NCBI RefSeq assembly: GCF_009914755.1
Contig: NC_060934.1
Length of the DNA stretch: 64,000 bases
Source: the human T2T-CHM13v2.0 reference genome, Homo sapiens
Reading direction: 5' to 3' (one strand)
Positions 24,890 to 31,139 of the stretch are shown here, one piece after another (within the stretch, counting starts at the first letter, position 1; each line of letters begins with the position of its first letter). A program made the position numbers and the translations under genes. The notes below the pieces were generated by a model. That model had not been told where the DNA came from. It saw only the letters and a program-made list of their open reading frames with translations, and did no database searches.

Positions 24890-24903
24890 CTACAGTTTAT
24901 TTT
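24890..24903 (+). repeat. L1 target-site duplication, left copy (CTACAGTTTATTTT)
   Basis: Identical 14-mer at 31126-31139. Confidence 0.9.
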
Positions 24904-25122
24904 ATTATTTTTTTTTTATTATACTTTAAGTTTTAGGGTACATGTGCACATTGTGCAGGTTAGTTACATATGTATACATGTGCCTTGCTGGTGCGCTGCA
25001 CCCACTAACTCGTCATCTAGCATTAGGTATATCTCCCAATGCTATCCCTCCCCCCTCCCCCAACCCCACCACAGTCCCCAGAGTGTGATATTCCCCTTCC
25101 TGTGTCCATGTGATCTCATTGT

Positions 25123-28100
25123 TCAATTCCCACCTATGAGTGAGAATATGCGGTGTTTAGTTTTTTGTTCTTGCGATAGTTTACTGAGAATGATGATTTC
25201 CAATTTCATCCATGTCCCTACAAAGGACATGAACTCATCATTTTTTATGGCTGCATAGTATTCCATGGTGTATATGTGCCACATTTTCTTAATCCAGTCT
25301 ATCATTGTTGGACATTTGGGTTGGTTCCAAGTCTTTGCTATTGTGAATAGTGCCGCAATAAACATACGTGTGCATGTGTCTTTATAGCAGCATGATTTAT
25401 ACTCCTTTGGGTATATACCCAGTAATGGGATGGCTGGGTCAAATGGTATTTCTAGTTCTAGATCCCTGAGGAATCGCCACACTGACTTCCACAATAGATG
25501 AACTAGTTTACAGTCCCACCAACAGTGTAAAAGTGTTCCTATTTCTCCACATCCTCTCCAGCACCTGTTGTTTCCTGACTTTTTAATGATTGCCATTCTA
25601 ACTGGTGTGAGATGGTATCTCATTGTGGTTTTGATTTGCATTTCTCTGATGGCTAGTGATGATGAGCATTTTCTCATGTGTTTTTTGGCTGCATAAATGT
25701 CTTCTTTTGAGAAGTGTCTGTTCATGTCCTTCGCCCACTTTTTGATGGGGTTGTTTGTTTTTTTCTTGTAAATTTGTTTGAGTTCATTGTAGATTCTGGA
25801 TATTAGCCCTTTGTCAGATGAGTAGGTTGCGAAAATTTTCTCCCATTTTGTAGGTTGCCTGTTCACTCTCATGGTAGTTTCTTTTGCTGTGCAGAAGCTC
25901 TTTAGTTTAATTAGATCCCATTTGTCCATTTTGTCTTTTGTTGCCATTGCTTTTGGTGTTTTGGACATGAAGTCCTTGCCCATGCCTGTGTCCTGAATGG
26001 TAATGCCTAGGTTTTCTTCTAGGGTTTTTATGGTTTTAGGTCTAACGTTTAAATCTTCAATCCATCTTGAATTTATTTTTGTATAAGGTGTAAGGAAGGG
26101 ATCCAGTTTCAGCTTTCTACATATGGCTAGCCTGTTTTCCTAGCACCATTTATTAAATAGGGAATCCTTTCCCCATTGCTTGTTTTTGTCAGGTTTGTCA
26201 AAGATCAGATAGTTGTAGGTATGCGGCGTTATTTCTGAGGGCTCTGTTCTGTTCCATTGATCTATATCTCTGTTTTGGTACCAGTACCATGCTGTTTTGG
26301 TTACTATAGCCTTGTAGTATAGTTTGAAGTCAGGTAGTGTGATGCCTCCAGCTTTGTTCTTTTGGCTTAGGATTGACTTGGCAATGCAGGCTCTTTTTTG
26401 GTTCCATATGAACTTTAAAGTAGTTTTTTCCAATTCTGTGAAGAAAGTCATTGGTAGCTTGATGGGGATGGCATTGAATCTGTAAATTACCTTGGGCAGT
26501 ATGGCCATTTTCACGATATTGATTCTTCCTAGCCATGAGCATGGAATGTTCTTCCATTTGTTTGTATCCTCTTTTATTTCATTGAGCAGTGGTTTGTAGT
26601 TCTCCTTGAAGAGGTCCTTCACATACCTTGTAAGTTGGATTCCTAGGTATTTTACTCTCTTTGAAGCAATTGTGAATGGGAGTTCACTCATGATTTGGCT
26701 CTCTGTTTGTTGTTGGTGTATAAGAATGCTTGTGATTTTTGTACATTGATTTTGTATCCTGAGACTTTGCTGAAGTTGCTTATCAGCTTAAGGAGATTTT
26801 GGGCTGAGACAATGGGGTTTTCTAGATATACAATCATGTCGTCTGCAAACAGGGACAATTTGACTTCCTCTTTTCCTAATTGGATACCCTTTATTTCCTT
26901 CTCCTGCCTAATTGCCCTGGCCAGAACTTCCAACACTATGTTGAATAGGAGCGGTGAGAGAGGGCATCCCTGTCTTGTGCCAGTTTTCAAAGGGAATGCT
27001 TCCAGTTTTTGCCCATTCAGTATGATATTGGCTGTGGGTTTGTCATAGATAGCTCTTATTATTTTGAAATACGTCCCATCAATACCTAATTTATTGAGAG
27101 TTTTTAGCATGAAGGGTTGTTGAATTTTGTCAAAGGCTTTTTCTGCATCTATTGAGATAATCATGTGGTTTTTGTCTTTGGCTCTGTTTATATGCTGGAT
27201 TACATTTATTGATTTGCGTATATTGAACCAGCCTTGCATCCCAGGGATGAAGCCCACTTGATCATGGTGGATAAGCTTTTTGATGTGCTGCTGGATTCGG
27301 TTTGCCAGTATTTTATTGAGGATTTTTGCATCAATGTTCATCAAGGTTATTGGTCTAAAATTCTCTTTTTTGGTTGTGTCTCTGCCCGGCTTTGGTATTA
27401 GAATGATGCTGGCCTCATAAAATGAGTTAGGGAGGATTCCCTCTTTTTCTATTGATCGGAATAGTTTCAGAAGGAATGGTACCAGTTCCTCCTTGTACCT
27501 CTGGTAGAATTCGGCTGTGAATCCATCTGGTCCCGGACTCTTTTTGGTTGGTAAACTATTGATTATTGCCACAATTTCAGCTCCTGTTATTGGTCTATTC
27601 AGAGATTCAACTTCTTCCTGGTTTAGTCTTGGGAGAGTGTATGTGTCGAGGAATGTATCCATTTCTTCTAGATTTTCTAGTTTATTTGCGTAGAGGTGTT
27701 TGTAGTATTCTCTGATGGTAGTTTGTATTTCTGTGGGATCGGTGGTGATATCCCCTTTATCATTTTTTATTGTGTCTATTTGATTCTTCTCTCTTTTTTT
27801 CTTTATTAGTCTTGCTAGCGGTCTATCAATTTTGTTGATCCTTTCAAGAAACCAGCTCCTGGATTCATTGATTTTTTGAAGGGTTTTTTGTGTCTCTATT
27901 TCCTTCAGTTCTGCTCTGATTTTAGTTATTTCTTGCCTTCTGCTAGCTTTTGAATGTGTTTGCTCTTGCTTTTCTAGTTCTTTTAATTGTGATGTTAGGG
28001 TGTCAATTTTGGATCTTTCCTGCTTTCTCTTGTGGGCATTTAGTGCTATAAATTTCCCTCTACACACTGCTTTGAATGTGTCCCAGAGATTCTGGTATGT

Positions 28101-28946
28101 TGTGTCTTTGTTCTCATTGGTTTCAAAGAACATCTTTATTTCTGCCTTCATTTTGTTATGTACCCAGTAGTCATTCAGGAGCAGGTTGTTCAGTTTCCAT
28201 GTAGTTGAGCGGCTTTGAGTGAGATTCTTAATCCTGAGTTCTAGTTTGATTGCACTGTGGTCTGAGAGATAGTTTGTTATAATTTCTGTTCTTTTACATT
28301 TGCTGAGGAGAGCTTTACTTCCAACTATGTGGTCAATTTTGGAATAGGTGTGGTGTGGTGCTGAAAAAAATGTATATTCTGTTGATTTGGGGTGGAGAGT
28401 TCTGTAGATGTCTATTAGGTCTGCTTGGTGCAGAGCTGAGTTCAATTCCTCGGTATCCTTGTTGACTTTCTGTCTCGTTGATCTGTCTAATGTTGACAGT
28501 GGGGTGTTAAAGTCTCCCATTATTAATGTGTGGGAGTCTAAGTCTCTTTGTAGGTCACTCAGGACTTGCTTTATGAATCTGGGTGCTCCTGTATTGGGTG
28601 CATATATATTTAGGATAGTTAGCTCTTCTTGTTGAATTGATCCCTTTACCATTATGTAATGGCCTTCTTTGTCTCTTTTGATCTTTGTTGGTTTAAAGTC
28701 TGTTTTATCAGAGACTAGGATTGCAGCCCCTGCCTTTTTTTGTTTTCCATTTGCTTGGTAGATCTTCCTCCATCCTTTTATTTTGAGCCTATGTGTGTCT
28801 CTGCACATGAGATGGGTTTCCTGAATACGGCACACTGATGGGTCTTGACTCTTTATCCAATTTGCCAGTCTGTGTCTTTTAATTGGAGAATTTAGTCCAT
28901 TTACATTTAAAGTTAATATTGTTATGTGTGAATTTGATCCTGTCAT
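25123..28946 (-). pseudogene. L1 ORF2p (endonuclease/reverse transcriptase), disrupted
   Basis: [11 protein letters not shown] start, EN domain and FADD motif present. Span is 3824 nt versus 3828 expected: a 4-bp deletion near 26710 shifts the frame, and there is a TGG>TAG stop at 26140-26142. Confidence 0.93.
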
Positions 28947-29009
28947 TATGATGTTAGCTGGTGATTTTGCTCGTTAGTTGATGCAGTTTCTTCCTAGTCT
29001 CGATGGTCT

Positions 29010-30026: not shown

Positions 30027-30481
30027 CTTTGTGGTTTTATCTACTTTTGGTCTTTGATGATGGTGATGTACAGATGGGTTTTCGGTGTGGATGTCCTTTC
30101 TGTTTGTTAGTTTTCCTTCTAACAGACAGGACCCTCAGCTGCACGTCTGTTGGAATACCCTGCCGTGTGAGGTGTCAGTGTGCCCCTGCTGGGGGGTGCC
30201 TCCCAGTTAGGCTGCTCGGGGGTCAGGGGTCAGGGACCCATTTGAGGAGGCAGTCTGCCCGTTCTCAGATCTCCAGCTGCGTGCTGGGAGAACCACTGCT
30301 CTCTTCAAAGCTGTCAGACAGGGACATTTAAGTCTGCAGAGGTTACTGCTGTCTTTTTGTTTGTCTGTGCCCTGCCCCCAGAGGTGGAGCCTACAGAGGC
30401 AGGCAGGCCTCCTTGAGCTGTGGTGGGCTCCACCCAGTTCGAGCTTCCCGGCTGCTTTGTTTACCTAATCAAGCCTGGGCA

Positions 30482-30697
30482 ATGGCGGTCGGCCCTCCCC
30501 CAGCCTCGCTGCCGCCTTGCAGTTTGATCTCAGACTGCTGTGCTAGCAATCAGCGAGATTCCGTGGGCGTAGGACCCTCCGAGCCAGGTGTGGGATATAG
30601 TCTCGTGGTGCGCCGTTTTTTAAGCCGGTCTGAAAAGCGCAATATTCGGGTGGGAGTGACCCGATTTTCCAGGTGCGTCCGTCACCCCTTTCTTTGA
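30482..30697 (+). CDS. L1 ORF0, intact 71 aa, antisense in the L1 5'UTR
   Basis: gcaATGg at 30482; MAVGPPPASLPPCSLISDCCASNQRDSVGVGPSEPGVGYSLVVRRFLSRSEKRNIRVGVTRFSRCVRHPFL*. Matches primate L1 ORF0 as I recall it; expression unknown. Confidence 0.75.
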   Translation: MAVGPPPASLPPCSLISDCCASNQRDSVGVGPSEPGVGYSLVVRRFLSRSEKRNIRVGVTRFSRCVRHPFL

Positions 30698-30930
30698 CTC
30701 GGAAAGGGAACTCCCTGACCCCTTGCGCTTCCCAGGTGAGGCAATGCCTCGCCCTGCTTCGGCTCCCGCACAGTGCGCTGCACCCACTGACCTGCGCCCA
30801 CTGTCTGGCACTCCCTAGTGAGATGAACCCGGTACCTCAGATGGAAATGCAGACATCACCCGTCTTCTGCGTCGCTCACGCTGGGAGCTGTAGACCGGAG
30901 CTGTTCCTATTCGGCCATCTTGGCTCCTCC

Positions 30931-31125
30931 TGAACTTTTATGCTCTGCTTCTTCTCGAATGCTTTGCTGCTTAGAAATTTCTTCTGGCAGATACCTTAAA
31001 TCATCTCTGTCAAGTTCAAAGTTCCACAGATCTCTAGGGAACTAGTTCTGCATGGCTGGGGAGGCCTCACAATCATGGTGGAAGGCAAGGAGATGCAAAA
31101 GCATGTCTCACATAGCAGCAGGCAG
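30931..31125 (-). mobile_element. THE1 LTR fragment (31044-31125) joined to THE1-internal fragment (about 30931-31040), co-inserted with the L1
   Basis: Minus strand reads CTGCCTGCTGCTATGTGAGAC...GTGAGGCCTCCCCAGCCATGCAGAACT, then AGT, then TCCCTAGAGATCTGTGGAACTTTGAACTTG...GCAGAGCATAAAAGTTCA; lies inside the L1 TSDs. Confidence 0.85.
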
Positions 31126-31139
31126 CTACAGTTTATTTT
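31126..31139 (+). repeat. L1 target-site duplication, right copy (CTACAGTTTATTTT)
   Basis: Identical to 24890-24903; the minus strand reads TT/AAAAAT, a canonical L1 endonuclease site. Confidence 0.9.

What the first reader, a model, noticed from the sequence alone, without database searches (positions are those of the whole stretch)
24890..31139. Full-length L1 carrying a 195-bp processed THE1 leader inside its TSDs: probable LTR-driven 5' transduction
Seen: the L1 5' end is at 30930, but the matching TSD (CTACAGTTTATTTT, also at 24890-24903) is at 31126-31139. Removing everything between the TSDs restores one continuous L2 and a TT/AAAA endonuclease site, so 30931-31125 arrived with the L1. 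On the L1 sense strand the extra piece is 82 nt of THE1 LTR and then about 110 nt of THE1-internal sequence running straight into GGAGGAGCCAAG. From recalled THE1 consensus, the LTR piece starts about 25-30 nt downstream of the LTR TATA box (the expected transcription start). It ends exactly at the MaLR splice donor position (GAACT|gtgagt), and a few hundred bp of LTR 3' end and internal sequence are skipped. Inference: the RNA began at a THE1 LTR promoter, was processed, and read into a donor L1 lying in THE1-int, i.e. an L1 mobilised by a borrowed retroviral promoter. Caveats: 3-4 nt (AGT/T) plus a retained CCCTAG at the junction do not fit a clean splice to the obvious acceptor, so a genomic deletion in the donor is possible. 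An RT template switch onto a THE1 RNA is another alternative.
Basis: partly seen in the sequence, partly recalled or inferred. Interest (0 to 1): 0.8.

Follow-up and report, generated by a model that had tools for sequence, protein, structure and literature searches.

The report
L1 carrying a spliced THE1 leader
A full-length human L1 jumping gene upstream of ECHDC3 carries, inside its insertion scars, a 195-base spliced copy of an RNA that began in the promoter of an old retrovirus-like element on chromosome 5, a recently described but still rare way for L1 to move with a borrowed leader.

Summary
A 6.0-kb L1 lies on the minus strand at 24904-30930. It and a 195-nt extra piece (30931-31125) sit between two exact 14-bp target-site duplications.

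The extra piece is a spliced RNA copy. It joins 82 nt of a MaLR/THE1-type 5' LTR to 113 nt of internal sequence.

The acceptor occurs in only 25 copies of one element, all spread by segmental duplication on chr5/chr6. The leader matches one copy, chr5:37.73 Mb, at 193/195 and shares four variants with it alone.

None of the 26 copies has an L1 at the junction. Both junctions are unique in this genome.

Best reading (about 0.58): LTR-started, spliced read-through of a donor L1 allele that once sat in that element and is now lost. An L1 endonuclease-like site lies 10 nt before the junction. The rival (about 0.3) is template switching or RNA joining in trans.

The class is already in print (Law and Burns 2026: 17 spliced RNA/L1 chimeras). 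I found no LTR-started example and did not find this locus in their readable tables. It is a new member of a known kind.

The parts
24890..24903 (.). Target-site duplication, the copy at the L1 3' side (CTACAGTTTATTTT on +; AAAATAAACTGTAG in L1 sense)
   Evidence: Exact 14/14 match to 31126-31139; these are the only two copies in the window
24904..24919 (-). Short A-rich tail of the L1 (sense ATAAAAAAAAAATAAT)
   Evidence: Read directly from the sequence
24904..30930 (-). Full-length L1 of 6,027 bp, pre-L1HS type (L1PA2-like). Its reading frames are now broken.
   Evidence: The 5' end GGAGGAGCCAAGATGGCCGAATAGG is. The longest ATG ORFs are 248, 752, 183 and 286 aa. The nearest genomic copies are 98% identical over 2 kb. 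The 3' UTR reads GATGACGAG; reading that as a subfamily marker is from recall.
30931..31043 (-). Leader part 2: 113 nt of THE1-type internal sequence ('exon 2'), beginning directly after the source's TTTTTTTCTAG acceptor. The last two sense bases, AG (30931-30932), could equally be the first L1 bases.
   Evidence: 111/113 identical to L004 and to 17 other paralogues. It lies 440 nt downstream of part 1 in the source.
31044..31125 (-). Leader part 1: 82 nt of THE1-type 5' LTR ('exon 1'), running from the expected transcription start to the LTR splice donor
   Evidence: 82/82 identical to the 5' LTR of L004 (chr5:37.73 Mb) and 74/82 to that element's 3' LTR. In the source it is followed by GTGAGTCA and preceded by TATAAAT plus 26 nt.
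31126..31139 (.). Target-site duplication, the copy at the 5' side, placed outside the leader
   Evidence: Exact match to 24890-24903. The sense context of the empty site is ..ATGTTA/AAAATAAACTGTAG.

Best explanation
One L1 retrotransposition event inserted a chimeric RNA made of a 195-nt spliced leader joined to a full-length L1.

The leader RNA started at the promoter of the 5' LTR of one particular MaLR/THE1-type element, now at chr5:37.73 Mb in CHM13. It started about 33 nt after the first T of the TATA box. It was spliced from the conserved LTR donor (GAACT|GTGAGT) to an acceptor 357 nt into the internal region (TTTTTTTCTAG|AG).

The leader then ran 113 nt (or 111) straight into an L1. 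Most likely that L1 was an active L1PA2-type allele that had itself inserted there, in sense orientation. Its cleavage site would have been CAT/AAAA, with AAAAGTTCAG (or AAAAGTTC) as its own target-site duplication. That allele has since been lost, or was never fixed.

The LTR-driven, spliced, L1-polyadenylated transcript was then used by the L1 proteins and inserted upstream of ECHDC3.

Shown: the single-event structure, the splice, the start position and the source element.
Inferred: the donor L1 allele and the joining in cis.
For: (1) Structure. Exact 14-bp TSDs enclose leader plus L1, with an A-rich tail at the 3' end.

(2) Splice. In the source copies the two leader parts are separated by 440 nt, beginning GTGAGTCA and ending TTTTCTAG (CTTTCTAG in 2 of the 16 copies printed). 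MaLR LTRs are described as carrying a splice donor near their 3' end (Franke 2017, PMC5538554, passage read).

(3) Source.
- The acceptor-containing 33-mer has 25 matches at up to 3 mismatches, all in chr5/chr6 duplicated copies.
- Among 26 copies compared, L004 is best at 193/195; the others reach at most 190/195.
- L004 alone shares four variant positions with the leader.
- The 5' LTR matches 82/82 and the 3' LTR of the same element 74/82.

(4) Start. The leader begins 26 nt after TATAAAT.

(5) Cis signature. The only AAAA in exon 2 starts 10 nt before the junction. Of 1,300 possible breakpoints in the L004 internal region, 153 (11.8%) have any AAAA at a TSD distance of 7-20 nt. Only 28 (2.2%) have NT/AAAA.

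(6) Base rates.
- 49 of 4,429 polymorphic L1 insertions carry 5' transductions (10.1101/2024.04.18.590093, passages read).
- The published spliced RNA/L1 chimeras are mostly near full-length, unlike the U6-type chimeras.
- 15 of those 17 also lack a source L1 (Law and Burns 2026, PMC13174262, sections 13, 14, 20, 21 read).
- Their RAP1GDS1 case has the same architecture: exons, then a cryptic acceptor just upstream of the L1, then the L1.

(7) Germline expression. THE1 LTRs start transcripts in human oocytes (PMC6102241, passages read), so germline expression is plausible.
Against: No donor is present.
- All 26 paralogous copies continue with uninterrupted THE1-type sequence after exon 2.
- The 29-nt leader/L1 junction and the 31-nt exon-exon junction each occur only at this locus at up to 3 mismatches.
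- BLAST-type searches with the leader and with exon 2 plus 150 nt of L1 found no other joint match. Only 40 of 1,419 and 40 of 1,076 candidates were scored.
- No copy of the 361 nt downstream of the junction exists outside the 26 paralogues above 84% identity, so there is no 3'-transduced offspring. Only 40 of 4,053 candidates were scored.

The junction has a 2-nt overlap. AG is shared by the THE1 sequence and by typical L1 starts: 10 of 11 relatives read AGGAGGAGCC. That would also suit a microhomology-guided template switch.

No orthologous ape sites or other human haplotypes could be examined.
Confidence: 0.58

Rival explanations
1. Joining in trans at the RNA or cDNA level. The L1 reverse transcriptase finished copying an ordinary L1 RNA made from its own promoter. 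At or within 1-2 nt of the RNA's 5' end it jumped onto a spliced LTR-started transcript from the chr5:37.73 Mb element, entering 195 nt from that RNA's 5' end, and copied it to the cap. Alternatively, the two RNAs were ligated before reverse transcription. No donor L1 ever lay in the THE1 element.
For: - The source element and all its 25 paralogues lack an L1 at the junction.
- Both junctions are unique in the genome.
- A 2-nt AG overlap sits at the junction.
- Chimeras of L1 with other RNAs inside one TSD pair are a known product of L1 reverse transcription (Law and Burns 2026, abstract and sections read).
- RNA ligation for U6/L1 chimeras is recalled from Moldovan 2019, which I did not read here.
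Against: - Such chimeras usually carry 5'-truncated L1 and abundant small RNAs. Here the L1 is full-length and the partner is a transcript of one old element.
- The entry point happens to lie 10 nt after the only AAAA of exon 2, which looks like an L1 endonuclease site plus TSD. The chance is 2-12% for a random entry point.
- The entry also had to fall within the first 195 nt of the spliced RNA.
Confidence: 0.3
2. Trans- or cis-splicing of exon 2 onto the L1 5' end, as Law and Burns 2026 propose for several mRNA/L1 chimeras whose exons end exactly at splice donors.
For: In the published set, six 5' exons end precisely at donors and join the first 10 bases of L1. Here the leader is in sense orientation and contains the first exon, as in 15 of their 17 cases.
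Against: The leader does not end at a donor. In the 16 copies printed the next bases are (G)AAAATTTGTAGCC, with no GT, GC or AT dinucleotide at the boundary. A check across all 26 copies recovered this boundary in 23, each followed by the same 20 bases.
Confidence: 0.04
3. A DNA-level origin. Either the 440 nt were lost by a genomic deletion in the donor copy, or the 195 bp was already at the chr10 site or was inserted separately.
For: Ape orthologues could not be checked here.
Against: - The missing 440 nt begin exactly at GTGAGT and end exactly after a T7-CTAG tract.
- No genomic copy has the deleted form: the exon-exon 31-mer is unique to chr10.
- The TSDs lie outside the leader. There is no poly(A) or second TSD between leader and L1.
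Confidence: 0.04

Closest known systems
Spliced 5' transduction chimeras of L1 with mRNAs or lncRNAs (Law and Burns, Cell Genomics 2026, PMC13174262), especially RAP1GDS1/L1PA2
   Same: - First exon(s) of a Pol II transcript lie in sense orientation, with splice junctions, fused to a near full-length L1.
- One TSD pair, an endonuclease-type site and an A tail.
- In the RAP1GDS1 case the last leader segment is the flank directly upstream of the source L1, reached through a cryptic acceptor. I propose the same layout here.
- 15 of their 17 cases also have no source L1 at the gene.
   Different: - The leader here starts in an endogenous-retrovirus LTR (THE1-type) and stays inside that element, rather than coming from a cellular gene promoter.
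- The L1 keeps its own complete 5' UTR, whereas the RAP1GDS1 source lacks promoter sequence.
- No source L1 and no sibling insertion are found.
- The locus is not in the readable supplementary tables: 0 hits for 'chr10 117', 'THE1' and 'ECHDC3'. Part 1 of Table S5 was read. mmc7.pdf could not be read.
Ordinary (unspliced) L1 5' transduction
   Same: Flanking sequence upstream of a source L1 is carried along because transcription started upstream. The class is rare but measured: 49 of 4,429 polymorphic L1 insertions.
   Different: Here the transduced RNA was spliced, so the leader is not collinear with the genome. The source L1 is also missing.
Template-switch or ligation chimeras (U6/L1, 5S/L1, Alu/L1 and similar)
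   Same: Two RNAs are copied into one insertion within one TSD pair.
   Different: Those usually have 5'-truncated L1 parts and abundant small RNAs as partners. Here the L1 is full-length and the partner is a spliced LTR transcript that ends at an internal point.
SVA_F1 (MAST2 exon 1 spliced onto SVA), recalled and not read here
   Same: A retrotransposon acquired a spliced 5' exon from a foreign promoter and carried it along.
   Different: That chimera founded a subfamily of many copies. Here there is a single copy, and the promoter itself was not carried along.

Membership tests
L1 5' transduction (cis read-through from an upstream promoter) | Non-L1 sequence 5' of a sense, (near) full-length L1, lying inside the same TSD pair, with an A tail and an endonuclease-type site | tested here: met
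   The TSDs are 14/14 identical and lie outside the leader. The cleavage context is TA/AAAA, and the A-rich tail is at 24904-24919.
L1 5' transduction (cis read-through from an upstream promoter) | The extra sequence maps to one identifiable source locus elsewhere | tested here: met
   L004 (chr5:37.73 Mb) matches 193/195 and shares four variants with the leader alone among 26 paralogues.
L1 5' transduction (cis read-through from an upstream promoter) | A full-length source L1 lies immediately downstream of the transduced sequence at the source locus | tested here: not met
   In this one genome, all 26 copies continue with THE1-type sequence and the junction 29-mer is unique to chr10. Other haplotypes and apes could not be tested.
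Spliced RNA/L1 chimera (Law and Burns 2026 class) | The leader contains an exon-exon junction that matches GT-AG boundaries at the source | tested here: met
   The 440-nt interval runs GTGAGTCA...TTTTCTAG in the 16 copies printed.
Trans-splicing subtype of that class | The last leader exon ends exactly at a splice donor | tested here: not met
   The next source bases are AAAATTTG.
Template-switch chimera (U6/L1 type) | The L1 part is 5'-truncated at a variable point, and the partner is an abundant small RNA copied from its 3' end | tested here: not met
   The L1 starts within 0-2 nt of the usual start. The partner ends at an internal point of a Pol II transcript. This lowers membership but does not exclude the mechanism.
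MaLR/THE1 LTR element (source locus) | Two LTRs flanking a roughly 1.6-kb internal region, with a TATA box and a splice donor in the LTR | tested here: met
   In L004 the LTRs are 353 bp each and 90.1% identical to each other, the internal region is 1,557 bp, TATAAAT is present, and the donor GTGAGT lies at LTR position 270/271.
MaLR/THE1 LTR element (source locus) | Match to the THE1 consensus in a repeat library (Dfam or RepeatMasker) | not testable with these tools
Generic copies elsewhere match the leader's 113-nt part at 92-94% and the 361 nt downstream of the junction at 81-84%.
L1PA2 subfamily | Subfamily-diagnostic positions against library consensus sequences | not testable with these tools
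   The evidence is indirect. The nearest copies are 98% identical over 2 kb. The 3' UTR has GAG at the recalled ACA/ACG marker site. The length is 6,027 bp.

The most novel reading that the evidence does not exclude
An endogenous-retrovirus LTR promoter of the THE1 type, a type known to fire in human oocytes, drove heritable mobilisation of an L1 that had landed inside the provirus-like element. The transcript was spliced like an LTR-initiated gene transcript and so did not depend on the L1's own, normally silenced, promoter. This chr10 copy would be the only surviving witness of that vanished 'LTR-powered' L1 allele. It would show that LTR-initiated germline transcription is a route for L1 spread.
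Probability: 0.35. Interest if true: 0.6.

Novelty: new member of a known kind. Interest (0 to 1): 0.45.

Why it matters
L1 copies are normally thought to spread only from their own internal promoter, which the germline silences. Chimeras like this one record L1 RNAs made from foreign promoters.

A first catalogue of 17 such events appeared in 2026. It covers gene and lncRNA leaders.

Here the borrowed start site is an LTR of an old retrovirus-like element, the class of promoter that dominates oocyte-specific transcription. The leader can be traced by four private variants to one element on chr5.

If the cis reading is right, one parasite's promoter rescued or boosted another's mobility in the germline. 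It would also show that repeat-derived leaders may be overlooked when leaders are named only against gene and RNA databases.

For the ECHDC3 locus it is probably neutral. The L1 is now broken and lies 4.7 kb upstream of the gene.

Tried and rejected
- L2 continuity across the empty site. A script BLAST of the rejoined flanks against the rest of the window gave nothing. A genome search with the right flank found only itself plus one 39-nt hit. The left flank hit 18 old copies at 70-90% identity, the furthest reaching query position 171 of 240, so none reached the insertion site. A longer left-flank query was swamped by an unrelated younger repeat at 24500-24663. The point stays unverified.
- Donor or sibling search. 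I searched with the 195-nt leader, exon 2 plus 150 nt of L1 and two junction patterns at up to 3 mismatches. Only the chr10 locus itself matched across either junction.
- 3'-transduction search with the 361 nt downstream of the junction. Only the 26 paralogues matched at 96-100%; the next best was 84%.
- Splicing at the leader/L1 junction was rejected because there is no donor.
- A genomic deletion instead of a splice was rejected because the boundaries are exact GT...AG and no deleted genomic copy exists.
- A separate retrocopy insertion was rejected because there is no poly(A) or TSD between the leader and the L1.
- Literature. A search for THE1 + LINE-1 + transduction + full-length returned 24 papers. 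None of the 15 listed titles or abstract starts describes an LTR-driven L1 transduction (listing only). A search for the dimensions of THE1 gave nothing useful.
- The subfamily names (THE1, L1PA2, L2) could not be tested because no repeat library was available.

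
Full report
**1. What is there**

The window is CHM13 chr10:11,718,001-11,782,000. On the minus strand a 6,027-bp L1 runs from its A-rich tail (24904-24919) to its 5' end at 30930. In sense that end reads ..TTCAG|GAGGAGCCAAGATGGCCGAATAGG.

The 14-mer CTACAGTTTATTTT is exact at 24890-24903 and at 31126-31139 and occurs nowhere else in the 64 kb. The upstream copy lies 195 bp beyond the L1 5' end. There is no A run and no second duplication between L1 and leader. So 30931-31125 entered in the same event as the L1. In L1 sense the empty site reads ..ATGTTA/AAAATAAACTGTAG, a TA/AAAA cleavage context.

**2. State and age of the L1**

- The longest ATG frames on the minus strand are 248, 752, 183 and 286 aa. 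By recall, an intact element has about 338 and 1,275 aa, so both genes are broken.
- A 2-kb ORF2 segment is 98% identical to its 38 best-scored relatives (97% to one more) and to none more closely. Only 40 of 7,037 candidates were scored.
- The 3' UTR reads GATGACGAG at the site where, by recall, L1HS has ACA or ACG.
- Ten of eleven close relatives start ..AGGAGGAGCC. The L1 here is therefore complete to within 0-2 nt, and the sense AG at 30931-30932 may belong to either partner.

**3. The leader is a spliced RNA copy**

A whole-genome search with the 195 nt found the full length only at chr10. The last 113 nt matched 26 loci on chr5 and chr6 at 95-98%, and 25 of those matches began exactly at nt 83. 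Only 40 of 1,419 candidates were scored.

In those loci the first 82 nt lie about 440 nt upstream. The interval begins GTGAGTCAATT and ends AATTTTTTTCTAG. All 16 copies printed keep GTGAGTCA and (T/C)TTTCTAG. The junction in the window, GAACT|AGTTCCCTAGAG, is thus an exact GT-AG splice.

MaLR LTRs are reported to carry a splice donor near their 3' end (PMC5538554, passage read). The exon-exon 31-mer is unique to chr10 at up to 3 mismatches, so no genomic copy carries a 440-nt deletion.

**4. The source**

The acceptor-bearing 33-mer has 25 matches at up to 3 mismatches:
- 7 at chr5:34.31-34.43 Mb, spaced about 20.4 kb apart;
- 6 at chr5:21.49-21.59 Mb, spaced about 20.3 kb apart;
- 7 in chr5:70.4-71.7 Mb;
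- one each at chr5:37.73, 100.02 and 100.89 Mb and at chr6:26.76 and 57.77 Mb.

This is one element multiplied by segmental duplication, not a general THE1 feature.

I compared 26 copies with the leader. The copy at chr5:37.73 Mb (L004, minus strand) scores 82/82 plus 111/113. The others score at most 79/82 plus 111/113. One copy, L041, lacks a match to part 1.

L004 alone shares four variant positions with the leader: exon 1 positions 9, 10 and 33, and exon 2 position 57. At both of its mismatches nearly all other copies agree with the leader, so those changes probably arose in L004 later.

L004 is a complete element. Its two 353-bp LTRs are 90.1% identical and flank 1,557 bp of internal sequence. 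The leader matches the 5' LTR at 82/82 and the 3' LTR at 74/82.

The leader's first base lies 26 nt after TATAAAT in that LTR, where Pol II would be expected to start. The paralogues are 96-97% identical to L004 in the next 361 nt, and the leader is 99% identical to L004. So the RNA was made after L004 had diverged from its paralogues. Two differences in 195 nt fit a few million years, with a very wide range (substitution rate recalled).

**5. How leader and L1 were joined**

After exon 2 every one of the 26 copies continues (G)AAAATTTGTAGCC.., which is ordinary internal sequence. There is no L1 and no GT at the boundary. That excludes splicing at this junction.

- The 29-nt leader/L1 junction is unique at up to 3 mismatches.
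- A search with exon 2 plus 150 nt of L1 found no second joint match. Only 40 of 1,076 candidates were scored.
- No L1-linked copy of the downstream 361 nt exists.

Two readings remain.

*Reading A: cis read-through of a donor L1 allele that once sat in L004 and was lost.*
- The only AAAA of exon 2 begins 10 nt before the junction (GCAT/AAAAGTTCAG). This is what an L1 insertion with a 10-bp (or 8-bp) target duplication would leave.
- Only 153 of 1,300 possible breakpoints (11.8%) in the L004 internal region have an AAAA at 7-20 nt. Only 28 (2.2%) have NT/AAAA.
- 5' transductions make up 49 of 4,429 polymorphic L1 insertions.
- The published spliced chimeras are mostly near full-length, and 15 of 17 also lack a source L1.
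- The RAP1GDS1/L1PA2 case has the same layout, and there the source is still present.

*Reading B: a switch by the reverse transcriptase, or an RNA ligation, in trans.*
- The donor is missing.
- The junction has a 2-nt AG overlap.

*Against reading B:*
- The L1 is full-length.
- The partner RNA is rare.
- The entry point lies close to the 5' end of that RNA.
- The endonuclease-like site would be a coincidence.

I put A at about 0.58, B at about 0.30, and splicing at the junction or a DNA-level origin at about 0.04 each.

**6. Comparison with what is known**

Law and Burns (Cell Genomics 2026, PMC13174262) describe this class. I read the abstract, sections 13, 14, 20, 21, 23 and 39-41, and part 1 of Table S5. 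They report 17 chimeras of spliced mRNA or lncRNA 5' exons with mostly full-length L1. Explanations range from cis-splicing to trans-splicing.

Their readable supplements contain no 'THE1', 'ECHDC3' or 'chr10 117'. mmc7.pdf could not be read.

They named unannotated leaders by BLAST against RNAcentral, Gencode and Rfam, which may pass over repeat-derived leaders.

THE1 LTRs start transcripts in human oocytes (PMC6102241, passages read). A search for THE1 with LINE-1 transduction returned 24 papers. The 15 listed showed no LTR-driven case in their titles or abstract starts (listing only).

I therefore file this as a new member of a known kind. It is distinguished by an LTR start site and by a leader that can be traced to one element.

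**7. What remains open**

- L2 continuity at the empty site.
- The subfamily names.
- The state of the orthologous ape sites.
- Whether any haplotype carries the donor.

The L1 5' end faces the ECHDC3 start site 4.7 kb away. I have no evidence of any effect on the gene.

Noticed in passing
G000 C5:34,309,600-34,432,265; C5:21,492,270-21,593,761; C5:70.45-71.71 Mb; C6:26.76 and 57.77 Mb: The source-type THE1 copy lies in a segmental-duplication family confined to chr5 and chr6. The family includes two tandem arrays: 7 copies at a period of about 20.4 kb and 6 copies at about 20.3 kb. By recall these positions resemble the GUSBP/SMN-region duplications; that was not tested.
   Followed up: partly
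G000 C11:94,150,518-94,242,645: An L1 ORF2 segment 98% identical to the window's L1 is repeated at least 17 times head to tail with a period of 5,633 bp. It looks like a tandem array built from an L1.
   Followed up: no
window 24500-24663: A separate interspersed repeat of middle age abuts the old repeat that hosts the L1. It is 83-88% identical to the 39 other loci scored, out of 1,435 candidates. The family was not named.
   Followed up: no
window 30400-31139 relative to ECHDC3 start at 35847: The L1 is antisense to ECHDC3, and its 5' UTR faces the gene 4.7 kb away. By recall, the L1 antisense promoter would transcribe through the leader toward ECHDC3. No expression data were available.
   Followed up: no
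window 32475-32517: A 43-nt stretch is 84% identical to the LTR part of the leader, suggesting another MaLR-type LTR fragment about 1.3 kb from the insertion. It is unrelated to the event.
   Followed up: no
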